Of a stretch of DNA of 64,000 nt, positions 662 through 13,436 are shown piece by piece. Position 1 is the stretch's first letter. The number at the start of each line of letters is the position of its first letter. The DNA comes from a plasmid: sequence record CP080654.1; one strand, written 5' to 3'. Below the pieces are notes generated by a model. It had not been told where the DNA came from. It worked only from the letters and a program-made list of their open reading frames with translations, and ran no database searches. The translations under genes and the position numbers were made by a program.

Positions 662-1013
662 ACGGCTAATACCTGAGATGAATAAGTCAACAACCAACGG
701 ATATCCGTCAACGAGATCAGTTTAACCAATTTATTGAACACTCATAACCCAAATAATCATGCGACTGCGCGCTGCCACGGAAACGCGTAAAAATCAGAAC
801 TGAAAGAGGGAAGACGGATGACGGACCAGAAACACAATGATGCCTATTCGCGCTGGTTAATTGAATAGGCAGACAGAGAAGAAAAGGAAGAATTCTCGCG
901 TTCGTTCAGCAGACTGAAATGCATCCTGTTAAATATCGTGGTGTTCGGTATCATTTCACTGGGCGTTTGCCTGGCTGTTCAGCAGGTGACGCATTGACAT
1001 CCACCCCGGCACA

Positions 1014-1208
1014 CAGGGCGAGAGCATGAGTTGATTTTTTGTTGTTTTTCATGATGAGATAGGTGGCTCGGCCAATGCTGAACAAATTTGAGATCGCATT
1101 TTCAGCACACCCCTGTACAAAATACGAGCAGAAAATGCAATTGCACCTTGGGATGACAGTGGTTAAATTTTTTTGGTTAACATGTCAGTAACTCATGCTC
1201 TCGCCCTG
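1014..1208. mobile_element. 195-bp MITE-like element with perfect 19-bp terminal inverted repeats (cagggcgagagcatgagtt ... aactcatgctctcgccctg). The repeats match the terminal repeat of the downstream ISAs1-family IS
   Basis: Perfect TIRs read directly at 1014-1032 and 1190-1208; no coding capacity; TIR core gggcgagagc(a/g)tga shared with the IS end at 13233-13253. Confidence 0.6.
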
Positions 1209-1317
1209 AGTTCGCACCTTCCGCTACTTCGACAGTTGTGTAAAAAACCGTGCTCGTTGATAACCAGAAGGTGCGGTACTGAAAAACTATTGCTTGCAAC
1301 AATTTGCTCAAACGTCA

Positions 1318-1677
1318 CTATGGCTTTTCATGGTTTTTAACCCATTTTTGCATCTGGTCGATTTCTGGTTGCTGGGCTTTGATAATATCTTCTGCCAGCT
1401 TTCGCATTTCAGGATCCTTACCAAATTTAAGCTGCGTTTCAGACATTTGAATGGCACCTTGATGGTGGGCAATCATCCCTTTTGCAAAGGCAACATCTGG
1501 ATCAGAGGACATCACTCCTGCCATCATGTCGTTATGCATACTTTTCATACCAGACATCAACTCTTGAGAAGCTGGAGACATGGAATGGTGATCGCCCATC
1601 GGCATGGTTTTGTCAACCGCAAAAACAGCAACAGGAGACATTAATAGGGCGGTCAGTATCAATATTTTTTTGTTCAT
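1318..1677 (-). CDS. DUF305-family periplasmic protein (119 aa) with N-terminal signal peptide
   Basis: MNKKILILTALLMSPVAVFA signal peptide; conserved MIAHHQGAIQM motif typical of DUF305. Confidence 0.65.
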   Translation of the reverse strand: MNKKILILTALLMSPVAVFAVDKTMPMGDHHSMSPASQELMSGMKSMHNDMMAGVMSSDPDVAFAKGMIAHHQGAIQMSETQLKFGKDPEMRKLAEDIIKAQQPEIDQMQKWVKNHEKP

Positions 1678-1848
1678 TTTACTACCTCTTAAAGAAAACT
1701 CGTTCGCTGAGAAGTATTTACTTATCTCACTTCAAGTTACCTGACTATTGGACTTTGGCCTACAAGAAACTCGAATTATTCAGAGTGTAGATGGCGTTGT
1801 TTCCCAAATCAACCATCAAGCCACGACTGCCCCAGCCCCAAGTGACCG

Positions 1849-2094
1849 TTACACTCGGCGCTTTCTGACAGGCAGACCAAGGGGGTTCAGTTTGTTGATT
1901 GCACCAACATACGCCATCACTTCCCCTACCTGACCGTTGTATGTTCGCAGACTGATTTTGCCCGTCATCAACTGCTTGAACCGATACATCGCCGTCTCTG
2001 CCTGCGAGCGACGGTGATATCCCGATATCTTCTTCCAGTGCACCAGCCCTTCCTTGCGCATCACCAGCACCGCCTCATTTACGCCCCAGGGCAA
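1849..2094 (-). pseudogene. 3' fragment of an IS5-family (IS903-group) transposase gene, truncated by insertion of the ISAs1-family IS
   Basis: ..YHRRSQAETAMYRFKQLMTGKISLRTYNGQVGEVMAYVGAINKLN.. matches the conserved C-terminus of IS903-type transposases; only about 80 codons remain. Confidence 0.55.
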
Positions 2095-2180
2095 GATCGC
2101 GAACGTTTTTTGACCAAGAAAAACAGGTTTGACCCTGCGATCCAGCTGTGATCTTATGCTCCTTTTTCAGGAGTGCCTTC

Positions 2181-3287
2181 ATGTCTATTGATGCTGTTTT
2201 TGCTCAGTTTTTCGATGATATTCCCGACCCTCGCCAGCATGCCAAGATTTATTATCCTTTCTACGATGTCCTGTTTCTCACCGTCTGCGCAGTGATAGGT
2301 GGCGCAGACGGGTGGGAAGATATTGAAGATTTCGGTGAGGTTCATCTTCCTTGGTTTCAATCCAAGGGGCTGTTTAAAAATGGTATTCCTGTCCATGACA
2401 CCATCGCCAGGATCATCTCCGGTATCAAACCAGAGCCGTTTCAGGCCGCGTTCGTACGTTGGACTCAAGCCATCAACCAGCACACCGAAGGCGCCTTGGT
2501 CGCTATCGATGGCAAAACCCTGCGCAGTTCCTATAACCGTGAAGATCGAACGTCGACCATTCACATGGTAAGCGCCTATGCCGCCGCTAATAAACTGGTG
2601 CTCGGACAGATAAAAACCGACGCCAAGTCCAATGAAATCACCGCCATTCCCGACTTGTTGGCGTTGCTCGACATCAAAGGCTGCCTGGTATCCATCGATG
2701 CGATGGGGTGCCAAACCGAGATCGCCGAGACCATCCTCCAGCAAAGTGGCGATTACTTGTTAGCCGTCAAAGGCAACCAGCCCAAGTTGTTCGAGGCGGT
2801 CCGGCAAGCCCTGGCCCCGCTGGCGGCTACCCCATTATGCGCAGCAACGATGACTCTTGATAAGGCTCATGGGCGCATCGATGGTCGTGAGTACCATATC
2901 ATGGCGGCGGGTGAGTTAGCCGCCCAGTTTCCTCATTGGGAACAGTTGCGCAGTATTGGCGTGGCCATCTCTTATCGCATTGAAAAAAGGGAAAAAATCA
3001 CTATTGAACAGCGTTATTACATCAGTTCCAAAGCACTGACGCGGGATGAGTTTGCACGATCGGTGCGTGGGCACTGGGCCATCGAAAATAGCCTGCACTG
3101 GGTGCTGGACGTCACGATGGGCGAGGACGATTGCCCAATTTATCGCGGTGATGCCGCAGAGATCCTTGCGTGCATCCGGCACATGGGGCTGAACATGCTC
3201 AGGGCTGAAACTTCACGCAAAGCGAGCATCAGACGGAAGCAAAAGATTGCAGGAATGAGCAGTGAATACCTGGAAAAGGTACTCAAT
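2181..3287 (+). pseudogene. tnpA: ISAs1-family (H-repeat-associated) transposase, interrupted 17 codons before its stop by Tn4401. The listed ORF 2148..3365 reads through into the Tn4401 IR
   Basis: Strong family resemblance (MSIDAVFAQFFDDIPDPRQ.. start; ..RGHWAIENSLHWVLDVTMGEDD.. DDE region); reading frame resumes at 13200. Confidence 0.75.
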
Positions 3288-3326
3288 GGGGGGGTAAGCG
3301 GGAACCCCAGAAAATTCCGCCATTCC
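3288..3326. repeat. Tn4401 right terminal inverted repeat (IRR)
   Basis: Tn3-family-like 39-bp IR starting with a G run; mirrored at 13156-13194. Confidence 0.8.
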
Positions 3327-3579
3327 GCATTGTGGAATTTTTTGGGGGGGTGGTCCGCGGCATGACGACCCGCCAAAGGCTACCGCATCTATCTGAGGCG
3401 CTGTGGCGCGACGCTGAAACCCCGGGGAATTCCGCTACTCCAGTTCCAGGTCCGCAATAGTTCGTCCAGGTCGGGTGGCGTACGCCGGAAACGCCGATTT
3501 TTCCGCAACCGTTTCTGCGTTGTCGGCAAGGTGGTCTCAGAGAGCGCTCAAGAAGCGGTTTTTCTCGTATGTTTAGCTA

Positions 3580-5136
3580 CGGTGGCCTAGGAGCCTGCGC
3601 GGCAGAAGCCAAATCGGCGGAAGATCGAGGACGATACGGGGATGGCTGCCAGTTACCTTCCTTACCGACCCGACCAATCCTATCTGCTGCCCCCTTCTCT
3701 GGGAGAGTGGCTACCTGAAGGGCATCTTGCCTACTTCATCAGCGAGACTGTCGATACGCTGGACTTGAGCGCATTCCACGCCCGGTATGCCGGCGGTGGT
3801 CCGGGCAATCAGCCGTTTCATCCGGCGATGATGGTCAAAGTGCTGATCTATGGTTACGCGAGCGGCGTCTTCTCTTCGCGCAAACTAGCCAGGAAGCTGT
3901 ACGAGGATGTCGCGTTGCGTGTGCTGGCCGCTGGAAACTTCCCGGCCCACCGCACGCTGAGTGACTTCCGTGCCCTACACCTGACCGAGCTTGAGAATTT
4001 GTTCGTTCAGGTGGTGCAACTGGCGCGCGAATGTGGGCTGGTGAAGCTTGGCACGATCGCGGTCGACGGCACCAAGGTAAAAGCCAACGCCAGCCGCCAC
4101 AAGGCGATGAGCTATAAGCGCATGAAGCCGGCCGAGGACGAATTGCATTGCGAGATCAAGGCGCTGCTTGATCGCGCCAAGGCTACCGACGACCAGGAGC
4201 GTAACGAGCCGGAGCTGGACATTCCTGCCGAGATTTCTCGCCGCGAGAAGCGCCTGGAGGCGATCCAGGCGGCAAAGGCGCGCCTGGAAGCGCGCCAGCG
4301 TGAAGCGGACCAGGCCCGGGGGCGCAGCGAAGACGATGGCCGCCGGCCTCGCCATCCGGATGGCTCGGACAAGGGCGGTGGCTCGTACAAACGCGAGTTT
4401 GGTGTGCCGGATGACCGTGATCAGGAAAGCTTCACCGATCCGGACAGCCGGATCATGAAACACGCCGGTGGTGGCTCCGAGCAGAGCTACAACGGGTACA
4501 CAGCGGTCGATGCCGAGCACCAGATCATCGTGGCGGCGGAGTTGACCAACTGCGCCGCGGACAGTCAGGCGCTGCTGGGCATGCTGGCAGCAGTTCAGGC
4601 CAACACCGGAGAAATGCCGGCCCAGACGCTGGCGGATGCGGGATTCCGTAGTGAGGCTGTTCTGGCAAAGGTCGCCGATCACCACGGCGATGTCATCGTT
4701 GCCCTCGGCCGCGAGGGACGTGAAGATGCCAAGGTCAATGCCAAGACCCATCCGCATACGGCGGCGATTGCGGCGAAATTGAAAACGGAGCAAGGCGATG
4801 CAGCTTACCGCCGGCGCAAGTCGATCGTGGAGGCTCCGAATGGTTGGATCAAGGCGGTGATGGGATTGCGTCAGTTCAGCATGAGGGGCCTGGACAAGGT
4901 GCAAGCCGAGTGGAAGCTCGTCTGCATGGCGCTAAATCTGAGGCGAATGGCGTATCTGTGAGGGCGAAGGTTAAATGGGGCGGCTCAAATGCACCCCAGT
5001 CGTCATAACACGCCGCGCGCCGCAAGATTGGTATCCTTGGCGCCGACGCCTTGCCAATTGCAGAGAGCGCCGCCGCCATCGTCAGTGCTCTACAGAAAAC
5101 CGGTCACACGGCTCTGCCGCGCAGACTCCTAGCCTA
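3580..5136 (+). mobile_element. IS1182-family insertion sequence (ISKpn6-like) within Tn4401
   Basis: Imperfect terminal IRs ggcctaggagcctgcgcggcagaagcc (3584-3610) and the reverse complement of ggctctgccgcgcagactcctagcc (5110-5134); encloses a 439-aa transposase gene. Confidence 0.55.
3642..4961 (+). CDS. tnpA: IS1182-family DDE transposase (439 aa)
   Basis: Family-typical N-terminus (..FHPAMMVKVLIYGYASGVFSSRKLA..) and DDE region. Confidence 0.8.
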   Translation: MAASYLPYRPDQSYLLPPSLGEWLPEGHLAYFISETVDTLDLSAFHARYAGGGPGNQPFHPAMMVKVLIYGYASGVFSSRKLARKLYEDVALRVLAAGNFPAHRTLSDFRALHLTELENLFVQVVQLARECGLVKLGTIAVDGTKVKANASRHKAMSYKRMKPAEDELHCEIKALLDRAKATDDQERNEPELDIPAEISRREKRLEAIQAAKARLEARQREADQARGRSEDDGRRPRHPDGSDKGGGSYKREFGVPDDRDQESFTDPDSRIMKHAGGGSEQSYNGYTAVDAEHQIIVAAELTNCAADSQALLGMLAAVQANTGEMPAQTLADAGFRSEAVLAKVADHHGDVIVALGREGREDAKVNAKTHPHTAAIAAKLKTEQGDAAYRRRKSIVEAPNGWIKAVMGLRQFSMRGLDKVQAEWKLVCMALNLRRMAYL

Positions 5137-5210
5137 AATGTGACAGTGGTTGGTAATCCATGCCGCCCGCAAGGGCGGCGGTGGTGGGCCAATAGATGAT
5201 TTTCAGAGCC

Positions 5211-6092
5211 TTACTGCCCGTTGACGCCCAATCCCTCGAGCGCGAGTCTAGCCGCAGCGGCGATGACGGCCTCGCTGTGCTTGTCATCCTTGTTAGGCGC
5301 CCGGGTGTAGACGGCCAACACAATAGGTGCGCGCCCAGTGGGCCAGACGACGGCATAGTCATTTGCCGTGCCATACACTCCGCAGGTTCCGGTTTTGTCT
5401 CCGACTGCCCAGTCTGCCGGCACCGCCGCGCGGATGCGGTGGTTGCCGGTCGTGTTTCCCTTTAGCCAATCAACAAACTGCTGCCGCTGCGGCGCAGCCA
5501 GTGCAGAGCCCAGTGTCAGTTTTTGTAAGCTTTCCGTCACGGCGCGCGGCGATGAGGTATCGCGCGCATCGCCTGGGATGGCGGAGTTCAGCTCCAGCTC
5601 CCAGCGGTCCAGACGGAACGTGGTATCGCCGATAGAGCGCATGAAGGCCGTCAGCCCGGCCGGGCCGCCCAACTCCTTCAGCAACAAATTGGCGGCGGCG
5701 TTATCACTGTATTGCACGGCGGCCGCGGACAGCTCCGCCACCGTCATGCCTGTTGTCAGATATTTTTCCGAGATGGGTGACCACGGAACCAGCGCATTTT
5801 TGCCGTAACGGATGGGTGTGTCCAGCAAGCCGGCCTGCTGCTGGCTGCGAGCCAGCACAGCGGCAGCAAGAAAGCCCTTGAATGAGCTGCACAGTGGGAA
5901 GCGCTCCTCAGCGCGGTAACTTACAGTTGCGCCTGAGCCGGTATCCATCGCGTACACACCGATGGAGCCGCCAAAGTCCTGTTCGAGTTTAGCGAATGGT
6001 TCCGCGACGAGGTTGGTCAGCGCGGTGGCAGAAAAGCCAGCCAGCGGCCATGAGAGACAAGACAGCAGAACTAGACGGCGATACAGTGACAT
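5211..6092 (-). CDS. blaKPC: Class A carbapenemase KPC (293 aa). Diagnostic position 272 is His, as in KPC-2 rather than KPC-3
   Basis: Near-identity to KPC over the full length ([50 protein letters not shown]...SxxK, SDN, KTG motifs). The listed ORF starts one Met earlier (MMSLY). Confidence 0.95.
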
Positions 6093-6379
6093 CAACGATA
6101 TTCCTTGTTTGAAGGTGGAGCTAGGTGTAGCGGCCGGATGTAATCAGGCCGCTACAGCTGGGATTATCACCGAGCTTGAAAAACGAATCAGGTCGGCGTT
6201 CATGGGTCGGCCACCTCGCCTGACCTCGGCATCCACGTTACGGACGGCCTCAGGAAGTCCTGGCCAAGCCCCGACTATTGGGGCGCGAAGATAGCACCGA
6301 GGGTACGCCGGTGTCAACACCAACTGAAAACTGACCCACTTTACCCCTGAATCACCAAAGTAATACTGACCCACCTGGA

Positions 6380-8205
<1,826 letters not shown>

Positions 8206-8287
8206 ACTAGCCCAGGTGGATCAGTTTTACTTCGCTGGGGTGGGTCAGTTTTACACTGCTGCTAACACGGAACCGCTGAAAATTCCG

Positions 8288-11200
8288 TCACTCCAGTTCC
8301 AGGCCTGCGACGATCGCATCGAGATCGATCGTCTTGCCGCTGCTTTGAAAGGTGTAGTGCCCGTTGAGCAGGATGTGCCGCCATGCCGCAGGCGAAATTT
8401 TTGTGATGAGTGCCAGCGCCTTGCTGTTGCCGGCCGCCTCGTACTTGGTCACCAGCCGCGACAAGATTGCCGAGTTGTAGAAAATGATCGTGTTGGCGAT
8501 CAGCCGTGCGCACTGGTTGCTGATCTCGATTTCAATGTCGGTGCGACCGGTCAGTTCCTTCTTACCGCCGACCTGGGCAATGGCCGAGCGTAGCTGATGG
8601 TAGGACTCGAGGCGATTTTGCGAGCGGTGCACGTTGCGTTCCAGTTGCGGATCGCGCAGGTAGCGAAGCGTGTAGATGCTGCGGATGAGCTTGTCGAACT
8701 CGAAGATCGCGCGCCGCGTCGGGTTCGTCGTGGTGTAGGTGCACAGCTTGCGGATCAGCGTGCCCTGCGTCATTTCCTTCAGCCCGAGTGTGGCGACGAT
8801 CCGGTCGATGTTCGGCTTCTCGCGATGGATGAGATCGCAGTCGATTTTCCCGACTGGCCGAATCAGGCACGCCTGATACTGTGCTGGATCGTCAGCGCAG
8901 TAGAGTTCTTTCAATTGCGCGTTGAGGTCGGTGAAGCGCGGCTCGAACCGCCGGCCAAACCAATGCAGGATGGCGAAGTTGGCCTTGTTGACGCTGTGCA
9001 TGTCGCCGGTGATCGCGGTCGGCATGATGTCCGACGTGTTGCGATACCAGATGTCGAACACGTGGTGGGCCTCGTAGTCGTGCGCGCCGATCAGGTAGCC
9101 GTTGAGCGGGATGTGGTTGCACAGCAGCGTGTAGGCGACCACGCCCTTGCCGCGCCCGAAGTACTTGCGCGAATAGCGCGCCTTCACGGTCGGCCGTTCG
9201 ACGCTGAATTTCTGCCCGTCGACGGCACCGTACAGCGTTTCGAGGTCGAACGAGTAGTATGGGAAGATCGGTAGCGTGGCGATGGCGTTGCTGATGCAGT
9301 CGTTGGCCGCGTGCAGCGTTGCCTGGCGCAGGTACTGCTGGTAGCCGCTATCCAGCACGTGGTACGGGATGTCGCTGGTGCGCGCCATGACGTGGTTGCC
9401 GTGGTTCATCGCTTGCGCGATGATGACCGCCATCAGGCTGTCAGCGTCGGCGACCTTCTTCGCGTAGCGCGGCTGCATGGGCGTGAACGCCGACAGAAAC
9501 TTGCACTCGTCGTTGACGAAGCGAAACACGTCGGCCACGTCGCAGAACGGAAGCTTCTCGTAGAATGCCTTTTCGCGCGCTTTCTCATTCTCGCTCTTGG
9601 GCTTGCGCCAGGTCAGTTTCTGCGTGTCCTTGTTGTATTCGAGGTGCGTCAGCTTGCCCTGTTTCAGCTCGCGGTTGAACGCCAGCCACTGCGTGCGCAG
9701 TTCGGCAGTCAGCGCATCGAGTTGGGCATGGACGGGTTGCTGCAGGAAGGGGATCTCCATTTTTGCGAGCACATCGATCTTCCTGTCCATCTCAACCAGT
9801 TCATCTGAGAAGTGCCGGTGTTGCAGGCTGTCGTCGAGGTAGAGTTCACCCGATTGGAGACGCTTCCTGATCTGGCGGTACAGCCAGAACTCGTAGCGGT
9901 CAGCGTGCAGGCCGGTTGGTTTACCGTCGGCGTCGAAGGTCAGCAGGTACGGCCGCAAGCGTTTCGGAAGTGTCGCCGCGGGCCACTCGTCGAGTGGCCG
10001 TTGCGACAGCCGCTGCTGCTTGGCAAAAACACCTTTGGCCCAGGCCAGCGCGGCAAGCCATGGACTGTCTGGATTGGAGCCGGAGAGGTCGAGCGCAACG
10101 TACAGTGGACGAAGATGGCGGCGCATGCGGTCGGCCAGCCCGTCCACCGCCTGCCACTGCAAGGCCAGCTTGCTCGCCGGCTTCACGCTCATACGCTGCG
10201 CCGTGGTTTGCAGCGTATCGCGAGGCATGATCTTGTAGGCGCGCTGCCGCACCTCGCCGAAGGGCGTGGGATCGGCCACGCTATCATCAACGTAGAGTGA
10301 CAGCAGGCGGCCTACCCGCGGCGTTTCCTGCTGACGGCGCACCTGCTCGTCGGCAAAGGATTGTTTGGCACCAGCGCTGCTTTCGTCCTCCAACTGCTTC
10401 ATGTGGTACGCCATCGCATCGACCAGGTTGTCGGAGAGCTGCCGGTAGCGTACCCAGGCATAGCACAGCAGGTAGAGTTGGGTCTGATCGGCCTTCAGAT
10501 TGCGCAGGTCGTGGACGGTGTAGAAGTTTGCCAGGCTCGCGTAGTACAGCAGGTTCTGCTGCGAGACGTCGAGTTTAGGCAGCAGTGTCTTGGCGATTGC
10601 GTGCAGCGGCTCCAGCGTGGCGCGCTTTTCGCGCTCGCGGACCATCTGGCGCCAGCCGAAATTCTTGGCGTCCTGCTTGAGCGCCGCCAGTTGCGACAGG
10701 GTGTCATCACGGACCAGAAGCTGGCTCAGCGCGGCCTTGGCAGATTCGTCCAACGCTTGCTCCAGCAGATTGCCCAGGCGCCGGCGCTCGGCGGATAGCG
10801 TTTCGCTGACCAACTCTTGCAAGGTCGTATAGCCGGGCCGGATAATCTTGTGCTCATTGAGCCAGACGATCAGCTCGGCGGCGACGAACCCCGGCGTTAC
10901 GTCACGCCGCACGGTCCGTGCGGCCTGCTGCTCGAGCTGCGGCAGGAAGGCGGCCGACCACGGCCAGTAGCCGAATAGTTTGGCGATCTGCTCGCGCTGG
11001 GTGTAGCGTTCATGCTTGGTGATCGCCTTGGGTTCGAACACCTCGCCGTGGAAATAGCGGCTCAGCACGAAAGCGCAATCGTCCTCGACTTCGTCCCAGT
11101 CGAAACTGAAGAAGGCATGCTTGGCCTTGAAGTAGCCGATCTGCAAGAGGCAATAGACCTTGGCATGAAGACTGGGCCGGCTGTTGGCAAGCGCCAACTC

Positions 11201-11317
11201 GGTTTCTGTCACAGCCAGATATTCCAGCTGCTGCGCATCATCGAACTCCGGCAGGCCATACAAGGCCTCCTGTTCGGCGTCGGATAGGACGCTGAGTAGC
11301 TTGTTCTTCTTGCTCAT
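8288..11317 (-). CDS. tnpA: Tn3-family transposase TnpA of Tn4401 (1009 aa)
   Basis: Length and conserved Tn3-family DDE transposase features; the C-terminus overlaps an IR-like sequence (..AGLELE*). Confidence 0.9.
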   Translation of the reverse strand: MSKKNKLLSVLSDAEQEALYGLPEFDDAQQLEYLAVTETELALANSRPSLHAKVYCLLQIGYFKAKHAFFSFDWDEVEDDCAFVLSRYFHGEVFEPKAITKHERYTQREQIAKLFGYWPWSAAFLPQLEQQAARTVRRDVTPGFVAAELIVWLNEHKIIRPGYTTLQELVSETLSAERRRLGNLLEQALDESAKAALSQLLVRDDTLSQLAALKQDAKNFGWRQMVREREKRATLEPLHAIAKTLLPKLDVSQQNLLYYASLANFYTVHDLRNLKADQTQLYLLCYAWVRYRQLSDNLVDAMAYHMKQLEDESSAGAKQSFADEQVRRQQETPRVGRLLSLYVDDSVADPTPFGEVRQRAYKIMPRDTLQTTAQRMSVKPASKLALQWQAVDGLADRMRRHLRPLYVALDLSGSNPDSPWLAALAWAKGVFAKQQRLSQRPLDEWPAATLPKRLRPYLLTFDADGKPTGLHADRYEFWLYRQIRKRLQSGELYLDDSLQHRHFSDELVEMDRKIDVLAKMEIPFLQQPVHAQLDALTAELRTQWLAFNRELKQGKLTHLEYNKDTQKLTWRKPKSENEKAREKAFYEKLPFCDVADVFRFVNDECKFLSAFTPMQPRYAKKVADADSLMAVIIAQAMNHGNHVMARTSDIPYHVLDSGYQQYLRQATLHAANDCISNAIATLPIFPYYSFDLETLYGAVDGQKFSVERPTVKARYSRKYFGRGKGVVAYTLLCNHIPLNGYLIGAHDYEAHHVFDIWYRNTSDIMPTAITGDMHSVNKANFAILHWFGRRFEPRFTDLNAQLKELYCADDPAQYQACLIRPVGKIDCDLIHREKPNIDRIVATLGLKEMTQGTLIRKLCTYTTTNPTRRAIFEFDKLIRSIYTLRYLRDPQLERNVHRSQNRLESYHQLRSAIAQVGGKKELTGRTDIEIEISNQCARLIANTIIFYNSAILSRLVTKYEAAGNSKALALITKISPAAWRHILLNGHYTFQSSGKTIDLDAIVAGLELE

Positions 11318-11426
11318 GGCCCGTTCTTGCTATCTTGAGGTTTCGTAGAAACATGGGGCATTTTCGATTCTACTGAAATAATCGTTATTATCGCGTTACT
11401 CGCTTTTCGAATCGCAACCTGTCCAT
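11318..11426. promoter_or_regulatory. Divergent tnpA / recombinase intergenic region; candidate resolution (res) site and promoters
   Basis: Imperfect inverted repeats (ttttcgattctac ... cgcttttcgaatcgcaa) in a 109-bp AT-richer gap between divergent genes. Confidence 0.35.
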
Positions 11427-13142
11427 ATGAAAACGGGCCAGACTACGGCTTCGAGTTCTACCCCAGTCGGCTTTCCCGATGCGGATTCGCTGGCTGCCTT
11501 GCGCGGCTGGTACGCGGGACTCAGCTCTCGCGCGGCCGTTGAACACTACCTGGCGGCACGCAAGGCCGCCGGTCAATCAGCGCGAGGGATGCTGGGGCAT
11601 ATCCGCCGCCAGCTCATCGTTTTCGCCAACAGCCGCCACCGGCCGGATCTGGCCGACGTGTTCCAGCACGCCCCCGAAGAGCGACAGGGGCGCGCGGGTG
11701 CCGTCGAACGCGCGATCCGGCTCTTGCCCACGCTGCCGGCGCCGAAGCCCCAGATCAGCGACAGCATCGACCAGTGGCTGTCTCCGAGGACCGTCAGGGC
11801 ACTGCAGGCGTACGGTATCCACACCCTCTCGGCGCTGACCGTGCGCATTCCCCGCCGGCGTGGCTGGTGGAAAGCCATCGAGGGACTCGGCATGACAGGC
11901 GCCCGGCAGGTCGAGGCTTTCTTTGCCGCACATCCGCAGCTCACCGAGCGCGCCCGGGCCCTGATCCCGATTATTCAGCCCAGCGGCATCGTGCCGTGGG
12001 AGCAGTTGCGTCTGCCGAACGAAGTCGACGGCTCGCAGGGCAATTTCCGGGCCCCGCGCAACGCTTGCACGCTGAATGCGACCAACGACTACGAGGCCGT
12101 GCAGGCCTGGCTGGCGCTGCACGAGACTGTCGCCACACAGCGCGCCTATCGCAAGGAGGCTGCGCGGCTAATCCTGTGGGCCATCGTCGAACGCGGACGG
12201 GCGCTATCATCCCTGACCACGGACGATGCAATCGCGTACCGGGCCTTTGTCCGGCACCCGACCCCGCGCGAGCGTTGGGTGGGGCCACCTCGACCACGCG
12301 ATTCGGTGGAATGGCGCCCCTTCTCGGGCGGCTTGTCCGCACGCTCGGCAGCGTATGCGCTGACGGTGCTCTCGGCGCTGTTCCGGTGGCTCATCGAGCA
12401 GCGCTATGTGCTGGCCAACCCTTTCGCCGGCGTCAAGGTACGCGGTCACGCCTTGCGGCCCGCACTGGATACGGCGCGAGGCTTTACCGAGGGAGAATGG
12501 CTACTGCTGCGCGCCATTGCAGACGGCCTGGAATGGTCCTACGGCTGGTCCGAGCCGGCAGCACAACGCCTGCGCTTCATGCTCGACTTCGGCTATGCCA
12601 CGGGCCTGCGCGCTAGCGAACTGGTCGGCGCCGTCCTGGGTAATGTCCGCCTCGACGAGCACGGTGACCACTGGCTGCATTTGGTTGGCAAAGGTGGCAA
12701 ACCAGGTAAGGTGGCCTTGCCGCCGCTCGCGTATACGGCGCTGGACCAATACTTGGCACAGCGTCAACTGCCAGTCAGCCGGGAACGGTGGAATCCGAAA
12801 ACGCCCCTGGTGGGCAGTCTTGGGGAAGACGGTAATGCCGGCATCACCGGCCCTCACCTTTGGTGCGTGTTGCGAAGATTCTTTACGCAAGCCGCTGAGG
12901 CCATTGAGGCCGATCATCCGGTCGCCGCCGAAAAGCTGCGCCGTGCCACGCCTCATTGGATGCGTCACAGTCATGCCAGCCATGCGTTGGCCCGGGGAGC
13001 TCAGCTCACCGCGGTGCGCGACAACCTACGCCATGCGTCGATCGCCACGACGTCGATGTATTTGCATGGCGATGAGCTCGAGCGCGCCAGGCAGATGCGG
13101 CAGGCTTTTGGCGCTCGTCACGTCAAGCGAGGAGTCGACTGA
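11427..13142 (+). CDS. tnpR: Site-specific recombinase of Tn4401 (571 aa), annotated as tnpR/resolvase in this transposon but tyrosine-recombinase family by sequence
   Basis: C-terminal catalytic signature ..TPHWMRHSHASHALARG...TTSMYLHGD (R-H-x-x-R-H...Y); lies immediately inside IRL and divergent from tnpA. Confidence 0.75.
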   Translation: MKTGQTTASSSTPVGFPDADSLAALRGWYAGLSSRAAVEHYLAARKAAGQSARGMLGHIRRQLIVFANSRHRPDLADVFQHAPEERQGRAGAVERAIRLLPTLPAPKPQISDSIDQWLSPRTVRALQAYGIHTLSALTVRIPRRRGWWKAIEGLGMTGARQVEAFFAAHPQLTERARALIPIIQPSGIVPWEQLRLPNEVDGSQGNFRAPRNACTLNATNDYEAVQAWLALHETVATQRAYRKEAARLILWAIVERGRALSSLTTDDAIAYRAFVRHPTPRERWVGPPRPRDSVEWRPFSGGLSARSAAYALTVLSALFRWLIEQRYVLANPFAGVKVRGHALRPALDTARGFTEGEWLLLRAIADGLEWSYGWSEPAAQRLRFMLDFGYATGLRASELVGAVLGNVRLDEHGDHWLHLVGKGGKPGKVALPPLAYTALDQYLAQRQLPVSRERWNPKTPLVGSLGEDGNAGITGPHLWCVLRRFFTQAAEAIEADHPVAAEKLRRATPHWMRHSHASHALARGAQLTAVRDNLRHASIATTSMYLHGDELERARQMRQAFGARHVKRGVD

Positions 13143-13155
13143 ATTTTCATCATAC

Positions 13156-13194
13156 GGAATGACGGAATTTTCTGGGATTCCCGCTTAGAACCCC
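13156..13194. repeat. Tn4401 left terminal inverted repeat (IRL)
   Basis: Reverse complement ggggttctaagcgggaatcccagaaaattccgtcattccg matches IRR. Confidence 0.8.
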
Positions 13195-13436
13195 TCAATG
13201 CTGGCCTCAACAAATTGGGTGAATTTTAACAATATGTTCACGCTCTCGCCCTGCCCCGGCACAGTCCGCTGAAGGAATGGCAGTTCCGTTCACCACATTT
13301 GCTAAGACATCAGGACTTACTTTGTAATCTGGAAGTACATCGAAGTTGCAACAATAGTACTCTATTGCGTGACGTAGATTCGTGACGTATAGTTACTGCA
13401 ACTTTTTTGTTTATAACTACCGTCAGGTACAAAATT

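What the first reader, a model, noticed from the sequence alone, without database searches (positions are those of the whole stretch)
1004..13263. 10-bp direct repeat (ccccggcaca) flanks a 12.2-kb unit bounded by ISAs1-type ends
The left TIR of the 195-bp MITE (1014) and the right TIR of the ISAs1-family IS (ending 13253) are each abutted on the outside by the identical 10-mer ccccggcaca (1004-1013 and 13254-13263). The MITE's own right flank (agttcgcacc) does not match. This is the signature of a single transposition event that mobilised the whole MITE-IS segment (the MITE, the DUF305 gene, the IS903 remnant and the IS, now also carrying Tn4401 and blaKPC) using one MITE end and one IS end, with an 8-12 bp ISAs1-family-type target duplication.
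Basis: seen in the sequence. Interest (0 to 1): 0.65.

Follow-up and report, generated by a model that had tools for sequence, protein, structure and literature searches.

The report
ISKpn31 target duplication around Tn4401a

Summary
CCCCGGCACA occurs only twice in the window, at 1004-1013 and 13254-13263, abutting the two outer ISAs1-type ends.

- **Empty site.** Several IncF plasmids carry the site with one copy of the 10-mer and position 1003 joined to 13264.
- **Anatomy.** Removing Tn4401a (3288-13194, 9,907 bp, TSD TCAAT) leaves a 2,328-bp unit. It consists of a 195-bp MITE, a p019/CopM gene block, an IS5-family (ISAs4-like) stub and a 1,255-bp ISAs12-like IS.
- **Other sites.** This exact 2,328-bp unit, uninterrupted and 100% identical, sits at six other sites, each with a different perfect 10-bp duplication. 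Flank proteins place two in Aeromonas chromosomes and one in a Citrobacter-type chromosome.
- **Order of events.** The unit also sits at the pKpQIL site without Tn4401, so ISKpn31 arrived first and Tn4401a second.
- **The MITE is real.** It occurs alone in Aeromonas popoffii with its own 10-bp duplication.

This is the element already named ISKpn31 (Partridge 2014), with p019 described as its passenger gene. What this work adds is the MITE-plus-IS dissection, the evidence for an Aeromonas source of the mobile parts, and the other insertion sites. Interest is low.

The parts
1004..1013 (+). Left copy of the 10-bp target-site duplication CCCCGGCACA
   Evidence: A single copy is present at the empty sites.
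1014..1208 (.). 195-bp MITE with perfect 19-bp TIRs (1014-1032 and 1190-1208). Its outer TIR serves as the left end of ISKpn31.
   Evidence: (I8). Independent copies occur in Aeromonas popoffii: L010 has a perfect 10-bp TSD GCCCATTCGC, and L007 is 94% identical with flanks matching 9/10.
1209..1720 (-). Passenger block carrying p019 (CDS 1318-1677, minus strand; DUF305/CopM-family metallochaperone). It includes a 77-bp stretch (1210-1286) about 86% similar to IS21 istA.
   Evidence: NCBIfam NF049983 CopM 123 bits and Pfam DUF305. Window 1213-1720 is 92.7% identical to a small Rep3 plasmid seen in metagenomes, and the homology starts at the MITE boundary.
1792..2080 (-). Remnant (one end plus the transposase C-terminus) of an IS5-family, ISAs4-like element. 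It is followed by 6 bp of unassigned filler (2081-2086).
   Evidence: 87.9% identity to ISAs4 of Aeromonas salmonicida. NF033579 IS5 transposase, profile positions 225-288 of 289, 62 bits, below the curated cut-off of 140 as expected for a fragment. The complete 1,063-bp element is present in the relative L037.
2087..3287 (+). Left part of the ISAs12-like core IS. It holds the internal IRL (2087-2104, CAGGGCAAGATCGCGAAC) and the transposase gene from 2181, cut by Tn4401a after codon 369.
   Evidence: The reconstructed 378-aa transposase is 93.7% identical to the ISAs12 transposase and scores 416 bits on NF033564 (ISAs1 family).
3283..3287 (+). Left copy of the Tn4401a 5-bp target duplication TCAAT (= ATTGA on the other strand)
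   Evidence: ATTGA is the predominant Tn4401a duplication reported in 10.1101/779538.
3288..13194 (-). Tn4401a (9,907 bp): ISKpn6, blaKPC, ISKpn7 istB/istA, tnpA, tnpR
   Evidence: IRs (I1), boundaries, annotation of the identical pBIC-1a region.
13195..13199 (+). Right copy of the Tn4401a 5-bp target duplication TCAAT
13200..13253 (+). Right tail of ISKpn31: the last 9 codons of the transposase and the IRR (13235-13253; reverse complement CAGGGCGAGAGCGTGAACA)
13254..13263 (+). Right copy of the 10-bp target-site duplication CCCCGGCACA

Best explanation
The 10-bp direct repeat is the target-site duplication made when a 2,328-bp transposable unit, the element already named ISKpn31, inserted once into an intergenic site of an IncFII(K) pKpQIL-type backbone.

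The unit is chimeric. Its left end is the outer TIR of a 195-bp Aeromonas-type MITE. Its right end is the IRR of a 1,255-bp ISAs12-like IS that encodes an ISAs1-family DDE transposase. Between them lie a p019/CopM gene block and an IS5-family stub, carried as fixed cargo.

The inferred mechanism is that the transposase pairs the MITE outer TIR with the IS IRR rather than with its own internal IRL at 2087. It makes cuts staggered by 10 bp in the target, and repair of the gaps duplicates the 10 bases.

Tn4401a carrying blaKPC later inserted 10 codons (including the stop) before the 3' end of the transposase gene, with its own 5-bp duplication TCAAT. This produced the 12.2-kb structure.

Shown: the duplication, the empty site, repeated movement of the whole 2,328-bp unit with 10-bp duplications, and Tn4401-free copies at the same site. 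Inferred: which protein did the cutting (in cis or from a related IS in trans), and that the internal IRL is not used.
For: - **Repeat and ends.** The 10-mer is present only twice and abuts the outer ends.
- **Empty sites.** A single 10-mer is found in four independent plasmids. Two of them show no Tn4401 or blaKPC in the about 11 kb examined.
- **Unit size.** Removing Tn4401a and one TCAAT gives a 2,328-bp unit.
- **Intact transposase exists.** The exact 378-aa transposase predicted from that reconstruction is in public data (P0121, named by NCBI as ISKpn31 family transposase [Aeromonas caviae]).
- **Other sites.** Ten contexts all carry the full 2,328-bp unit, nine at 100% identity and L047 at 99.8%. 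The perfect 10-bp duplications are ACTTTACCAT, GGAGATCTCC, ACCCCTGGGC, TTCGCCATGC, GAGCCCGGTA and GTCTCCTTTC. Four contigs have CCCCGGCACA without Tn4401.
- **Hosts.** Flank proteins place two sites in Aeromonas chromosomes and one in a Citrobacter-type chromosome. A further left junction lies in an Aeromonas caviae small-plasmid backbone whose empty site is known.
- **Related elements also make 10-bp duplications.** ISAs12 (1,441 bp, 91% nt identity) gives ACCGGAATAG and GGATGTAGCT. The MITE alone gives GCCCATTCGC in A. popoffii.
- **End similarity.** The first 12 bases of the MITE TIR are identical to the IRR and 15/19 match overall. The internal IRL has two changes in the first 12.
- **Transposase family.** NF033564 (ISAs1 family) scores 416 bits over residues 30-340.
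- **Literature.** p019 is called the passenger gene of ISKpn31 (PMC6286996).
Against: - No experiment shows which ends the transposase binds.
- The internal IRL at 2087 (15/19 match to the IRR) could still be functional. A 1,255-bp core moving alone was simply not seen in the 24 contigs read.
- In PLSDB the element occurs only at this one site and always with Tn4401. The evidence for repeated mobility therefore rests on draft assemblies and metagenome contigs from the larger collection.
- The primary description (Partridge 2014) could not be read, so the identity of its published boundaries with 1014/13253 is inferred.
Confidence: 0.93

Rival explanations
1. The 12.2-kb unit moved into this site as one piece with Tn4401a already inside. 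On this view ISKpn31::Tn4401a acts as an outer vehicle for blaKPC.
For: The Tn4401a insertion only swaps the last 9 residues of the transposase for 25 others. The ISAs1-family profile match (residues 30-340) is untouched, so the protein could still be active. PLSDB holds no Tn4401-free ISKpn31.
Against: Four contigs carry uninterrupted ISKpn31 at exactly the CCCCGGCACA site in the same IncFII context (L041, L045, L047, L048). This is the expected intermediate for 'IS first, Tn4401a second'. The Tn4401-loaded form was never found at any other site: 210/210 full-length left junctions in PLSDB, 14/14 in E. coli genomes and 10/10 p019 contexts are identical.
Confidence: 0.04
2. The element is simply a long IS with a passenger gene. 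The 195-bp 'MITE' is only its left end, not a discrete element, so no MITE-plus-IS composite is involved.
For: All ten uninterrupted copies move as one 2,328-bp unit, and the core was never seen alone. The literature treats it as an IS with a passenger gene.
Against: The 195-bp piece has two perfect 19-bp TIRs of its own type, which differ from the IS IRR after position 12. It occurs on its own in Aeromonas popoffii with its own 10-bp duplication. A genuine ISAs12-type IRL sits internally at 2087. A relative (L037) has the MITE (lacking its first 17 bp), p019 and a complete ISAs4-like element without the core IS. In terms of present behaviour the two descriptions coincide. They differ only about origin.
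Confidence: 0.1
3. The MITE and the IS inserted separately, and recombination or deletion then brought matching flanks together. Alternatively, the 10-mer match is a coincidence.
For: Neither the MITE nor the core IS has its own duplication here.
Against: An exact 10/10 match at both outer boundaries has a chance of about 1e-6. The empty site has a single copy. Six other sites show the same unit with perfect 10-bp duplications.
Confidence: 0.01

Closest known systems
[quoted passage not shown]
   Same: It is the same DNA. RefSeq names the transposase 'ISAs1-like element ISKpn31 family transposase'. p019 is described as its passenger gene (PMC6286996). pKpQIL-type plasmids are annotated ISKpn31#/Tn4401/.../ISKpn31#/Tn5403# (PMC6764390).
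   Different: Nothing structural differs. The primary letter could not be read, so I cannot say whether it reports the MITE substructure, the internal IRL or the Aeromonas source. Later papers quote it as saying that p019 had been seen only on blaKPC plasmids (PMC6277887). Six other sites without Tn4401 within the stretches read were found here.
ISAs12 (ISAs1 family, Aeromonas)
   Same: The transposase gene and right end share 91% nt identity, and the transposases share 93.7% aa identity. The IR type is the same (CAGGGCGAGATCGTGAAC...) and it makes 10-bp target duplications.
   Different: ISAs12 is a plain 1,441-bp IS. The ISKpn31 core is 1,255 bp with a leader about 186 bp shorter and a more diverged IRL. 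It moves only together with 1,073 bp of upstream DNA that ends in a MITE.
MITE-assisted mobilisation units and transporter ISs (for example integron mobilisation units bounded by MITE-like ends, and ISs with passenger genes)
   Same: A non-autonomous TIR-bearing element supplies one boundary, and a gene unrelated to transposition is carried between the ends. This comparison comes from general knowledge, not from a test here.
   Different: Here one end is a MITE and the other is the autonomous IS itself. The arrangement has become a fixed single unit, with 100% identical copies at seven sites.
Tn4401a in pKpQIL with the ATTGA duplication
   Same: The transposon is 9,907 bp, has the TCAAT/ATTGA 5-bp duplication, and the neighbours are the same as in pBIC-1a and pKpQIL-like plasmids.
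   Different: None.

Membership tests
ISAs1-family insertion sequence | A single DDE transposase that matches the family model | tested here: met
   NF033564 transpos_ISAs1 scores 416 bits against a cut-off of 70. Pfam DDE_Tnp_1_assoc and DDE_Tnp_1 also match.
ISAs1-family insertion sequence | Short terminal inverted repeats (about 14-22 bp) | tested here: met
   The outer ends at 1014 and 13253 match 15/19, with the first 12 identical. The internal IRL at 2087 also matches the IRR 15/19.
ISAs1-family insertion sequence | A target-site duplication of about 8-12 bp flanking the element | tested here: met
   There is a 10-bp duplication here, a single copy at the empty sites, and six other sites with perfect 10-bp duplications. 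The 1,255-bp core taken alone has no duplication.
ISAs1-family insertion sequence | A size of about 1.2-1.5 kb with no cargo | tested here: not met
   The mobile unit is 2,328 bp and carries p019 plus an IS5-family stub. Only the core (1,255 bp) fits the typical size.
MITE (the 195-bp element at 1014-1208) | Small, non-coding and bounded by TIRs | tested here: met
   It is 195 bp with perfect 19-bp TIRs, and no ORF of at least 80 aa lies within it.
MITE (the 195-bp element at 1014-1208) | Independent copies elsewhere, each flanked by its own target duplication | tested here: met
   In A. popoffii, L010 has the 10/10 duplication GCCCATTCGC and L007 has flanks matching 9/10. Only two solo copies were found, so the size of the family is unknown.
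MITE (the 195-bp element at 1014-1208) | TIRs related to those of an autonomous IS that could move it | tested here: met
   The terminal 12 bp are identical to the ISKpn31 IRR, and 10 of the first 12 (13/19) match the ISAs12 ends. Recognition by the transposase itself is not testable with these tools.
ISKpn31 as published | Includes p019 as a passenger gene and is interrupted by Tn4401a in pKpQIL-type plasmids | tested here: met
   The only ISAs1-type left end upstream of p019 is at 1014.
ISKpn31 as published | Published boundaries, IR and DR values identical to 1014/13253 and 10 bp | not testable with these tools
   Partridge 2014 (PMC4313344) and the ISfinder entry are not held.
Tn4401 isoform a | About 9.9 kb (99 bp shorter than Tn4401b), Tn3-type IRs and a 5-bp duplication | tested here: met
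   It is 9,907 bp, has IRs 81% complementary over 53 nt, and has the TCAAT duplication. The isoform lengths come from general knowledge.

The most novel reading that the evidence does not exclude
ISKpn31 is not a simple IS with a passenger gene. It is a chimera assembled in stages: a MITE and an ISAs4-like IS came to flank a CopM/p019 block, and an ISAs12-like IS then came to lie next to the truncated ISAs4-like stub. The unit now always uses the MITE's outer TIR as its left end, which locks p019 in as cargo. Its mobile parts are of Aeromonas type. It is currently active in Aeromonas and Enterobacterales without blaKPC, so the 11,109-Da p019 MALDI-TOF marker can spread independently of KPC. 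A bolder extension is that the Tn4401a-loaded 12.2-kb form, whose transposase keeps its whole catalytic region, can still transpose. The probability given is for the chimera and activity reading. I put the bolder extension at about 0.05.
Probability: 0.7. Interest if true: 0.35.

Novelty: already known. Interest (0 to 1): 0.2.

Why it matters
This structure is the immediate genetic context of blaKPC in the epidemic pKpQIL plasmids. Its passenger gene p019 is the protein behind the 11,109-Da MALDI-TOF peak used as a rapid surrogate for KPC.

ISKpn31 inserted first, and identical Tn4401-free copies now sit at several other sites in Aeromonas and Citrobacter-type chromosomes and on plasmid-type contigs. 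This offers a plausible explanation for p019 peaks in KPC-negative isolates. It also points to an Aeromonas source for the mobile parts of this piece of the KPC context.

For transposon biology it is a tidy example of an IS adopting a MITE end and thereby fixing cargo. The principle is not new.

Tried and rejected
- **Primary literature.** Partridge 2014 (PMC4313344 and its DOI), the authors' reply (PMC4313345), Gato 2021 (PMC8373255) and the 2018 CMR review (PMC6148190) are not held. Only secondary citations could be used.
- **PLSDB, MITE alone.** All 213 records holding the MITE are the pKpQIL context. There are no solo copies and no second site.
- **PLSDB, uninterrupted ISKpn31.** None was found. 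Only ISAs12 matched, at 91.7%.
- **Exact-protein look-up of p019.** It returned only Tn4401-bearing contexts, because the longest contigs are read first. Looking up the reconstructed intact transposase instead is what revealed the other sites.
- **MITE as a deletion derivative of ISAs12.** Rejected. Only the terminal 16 nt or so are similar.
- **Aeromonas origin of p019 itself.** Not supported. The closest named homologue is in Serratia aquatilis (86% aa), and the closest DNA is a small Rep3 plasmid from metagenomes.
- **Core IS inserted directly into the ISAs4-like element.** Not exactly. Homology stops at 2080, and 6 bp of unassigned filler precede the IRL.
- **Chance hits.** Four of the six genome-scan hits to the 19-mer TIR look like chance matches or an unrelated end. 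About four chance hits are expected by my own estimate (2 strands x 596 Gb / 4^19).
Full report
**Observation.** The 10-mer CCCCGGCACA occurs only twice in the 64-kb window, at 1004-1013 and 13254-13263 (shuffles gave 0.23 copies on average). The left copy abuts a 195-bp element (1014-1208) with perfect 19-bp terminal inverted repeats, CAGGGCGAGAGCATGAGTT. The right copy abuts ...GTTCACGCTCTCGCCCTG, which ends at 13253. A relaxed scan for this kind of end finds exactly four in the window: 1014(+), 1208(-), 2087(+) and 13253(-). Neither the 195-bp element alone nor the internal IS alone is flanked by a repeat.

**Anatomy.**
- Tn4401 occupies 3288-13194. It is 9,907 bp, the length of isoform a, and has the 5-bp duplication TCAAT, which is ATTGA on the other strand. 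ATTGA is the signature of pKpQIL-type plasmids.
- Removing Tn4401 and one TCAAT leaves 2,328 bp.
- From left to right this unit holds:
  - the 195-bp MITE;
  - a block at 1209-1720 containing p019 (1318-1677, minus strand);
  - an IS5-family stub (1792-2080), 88% identical to ISAs4 of Aeromonas;
  - 6 bp of filler;
  - a 1,255-bp IS beginning with its own IRL at 2087.
- p019 matches DUF305 and NCBIfam CopM metallochaperone at 123 bits.
- The reconstructed transposase is 378 aa. It is 93.7% identical to the ISAs12 transposase and scores 416 bits on the ISAs1-family model over residues 30-340.
- Tn4401a sits after codon 369 and replaces the last 9 residues with 25 others.

**Test 1: the empty site.** I joined 1003 to 13264 with one copy of the 10-mer and searched plasmids. 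Three records match the whole 294-nt query at 100%, and dozens more span the junction at 95-99.5%. Direct reading shows ...GACATCCA CCCCGGCACA GTCCGCTGAAGG... with a single 10-mer in NZ_CP087582, NZ_CP031818, NZ_CP117735 and CP056500. A diverged orthologous site is present in NZ_CP072951. The 10-mer was therefore single before the insertion, and the repeat is a target-site duplication.

**Test 2: does the whole segment move as a unit?**
- Within PLSDB and complete E. coli genomes the element is frozen. All 210 full-length MITE copies share the same left junction, 222 records share the right junction, and 14/14 E. coli plasmids match. No uninterrupted copy exists there.
- Ten distinct contexts of the exact p019 protein also share an identical 600-bp left flank.
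- A metagenome scan then found a contig (L036) with the unit's first 839 bp at 99.9% identity but a different left flank. That flank is 99% identical to an Aeromonas caviae small plasmid in which the site is empty.
- An exact look-up showed that the reconstructed intact transposase exists in public data. NCBI names it an ISKpn31 family transposase of Aeromonas caviae.
- Its encoding contigs gave ten contexts, all containing the complete 2,328-bp unit (nine at 100% identity, L047 at 99.8%).
  - Six carry new perfect 10-bp duplications: ACTTTACCAT, GGAGATCTCC, ACCCCTGGGC, TTCGCCATGC, GAGCCCGGTA and GTCTCCTTTC.
  - Four sit at CCCCGGCACA in the pKpQIL-type IncFII context but without Tn4401.
- Flanking proteins place two sites in Aeromonas chromosomes, where the element interrupts a GGDEF/EAL gene and a hlyIII gene. 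One site lies in a Citrobacter-type chromosome, and the rest lie next to genes whose identical proteins occur in many genera.
- The unit is therefore an active element that always uses the MITE outer end and the IS right end and makes 10-bp duplications. ISKpn31 reached the pKpQIL backbone first, and Tn4401a came second.

**Is the 195-bp piece a real MITE?** Yes.
- Aeromonas popoffii CIP 105493 carries a 94%-identical copy (L007, flanks matching 9/10). It also carries a shortened copy with a perfect 10-bp duplication GCCCATTCGC (L010).
- Both of its TIRs are of one type, and that type differs from the IS IRR after position 12. It is therefore not a deletion derivative of ISKpn31.
- It shares only its tips with ISAs12.
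- The MITE TIR matches the IRR at 12/12 terminal bases. The IS's own IRL has two changes there. This fits, but does not prove, the idea that the MITE end has replaced a weakened IRL.
- ISAs12 itself (1,441 bp) makes 10-bp duplications.

**Assembly history (inferred).**
- Window 1213-1720 is 92.7% identical to a small Rep3 plasmid from metagenomes, and the homology begins at the MITE boundary.
- Contig L037 carries the MITE (lacking its first 17 bp), the p019 block and a complete 1,063-bp ISAs4-like element at 97.6% identity, with no ISAs12-like core.
- This suggests that the MITE and the ISAs4-like element flanked p019 first. The ISAs12-like IS then arrived, and the outermost ends began to move together.
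- The closest named homologue of p019 is in Serratia aquatilis (86% aa), where it sits between cusRS-like genes and a MerR-type regulator. The cargo is therefore probably not of Aeromonas origin, although the mobile parts are of Aeromonas type.

**Comparison with what is known.** RefSeq names the transposase ISKpn31. [quoted passage not shown] Later papers call p019 the passenger gene of ISKpn31 and describe it as part of an insertion sequence. Plasmid annotations list ISKpn31#/Tn4401/ISKpn31#. Because the only suitable left end upstream of p019 is at 1014, the published element must be this 2,328-bp unit. I could not read the letter itself. One citing paper says it reported p019 only on blaKPC plasmids and warned that independent movement might occur. 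Another invokes such movement to explain KPC-negative isolates with the p019 peak. The Tn4401-free copies found here are consistent with that.

**Verdict.** The stub is ISAs4-like rather than IS903. The unit is a named IS rather than a new composite. There is no sign that the 12.2-kb loaded form has moved. The structure is already known, and interest is low. The modest additions are the MITE-plus-IS dissection, the Aeromonas source of the mobile parts, and the other insertion sites.

Noticed in passing
window 1318-1677 (minus strand): p019, the 11,109-Da MALDI-TOF marker protein, matches the NCBIfam CopM-family metallochaperone model (123 bits, cut-off 90). In Serratia aquatilis its 86% homologue lies between cusRS-like genes and a MerR-type regulator. 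A 2018 paper still described it as having no homology to proteins of known function.
   Followed up: partly
L001 (NZ_CP087582, pCMP234-2) 3138-3176; equivalent to about window 13873: This K. quasipneumoniae plasmid from a deer has the empty ISKpn31 site but carries Tn4401 about 600 bp to the right, in the opposite orientation and inside the 343-aa ORF. That is a separate Tn4401 insertion into the same backbone region.
   Followed up: partly
L042 2834-5161: An uninterrupted ISKpn31 (duplication GGAGATCTCC) lies in what looks like a Citrobacter chromosome, between wza/wzc-type capsule genes and yegH. The element has therefore moved inside Enterobacterales without blaKPC.
   Followed up: partly
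L037 421-2244: This metagenome contig holds the MITE lacking its first 17 bp, the p019 block and a complete 1,063-bp ISAs4-like IS, at 97.6% identity to the unit and without the ISAs12-like core. It is a possible precursor arrangement.
   Followed up: partly
window 1210-1286: A 77-bp stretch immediately right of the MITE is about 86% similar to part of IS21 istA. The same stretch is present next to the p019 homologue on small Rep3 plasmids from metagenomes.
   Followed up: partly
L008 about 104-173 (Alteromonadaceae MAG): A sequence very like the ISKpn31 internal IRL lies about 45 bp upstream of a MITE-type right end. Together they form what looks like a 69-bp mini-element with ISAs1-type ends.
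   Followed up: no
L007 794-941 (Aeromonas popoffii): A run of N sits directly before the MITE copy, with the flank and the first 18 bp of the TIR repeated on the other side. It is probably a scaffold gap or masked stretch caused by the repeat.
   Followed up: no
window 11427-13142: The Tn4401 protein annotated as 'resolvase TnpR' is 571 aa, and one record annotates it as tyrosine recombinase XerD. It does not look like a classical serine resolvase.
   Followed up: no
L026 and L027 (ISAs12 copies): Two of the four ISAs12 copies examined have no flanking duplication, which suggests later rearrangements next to them.
   Followed up: no
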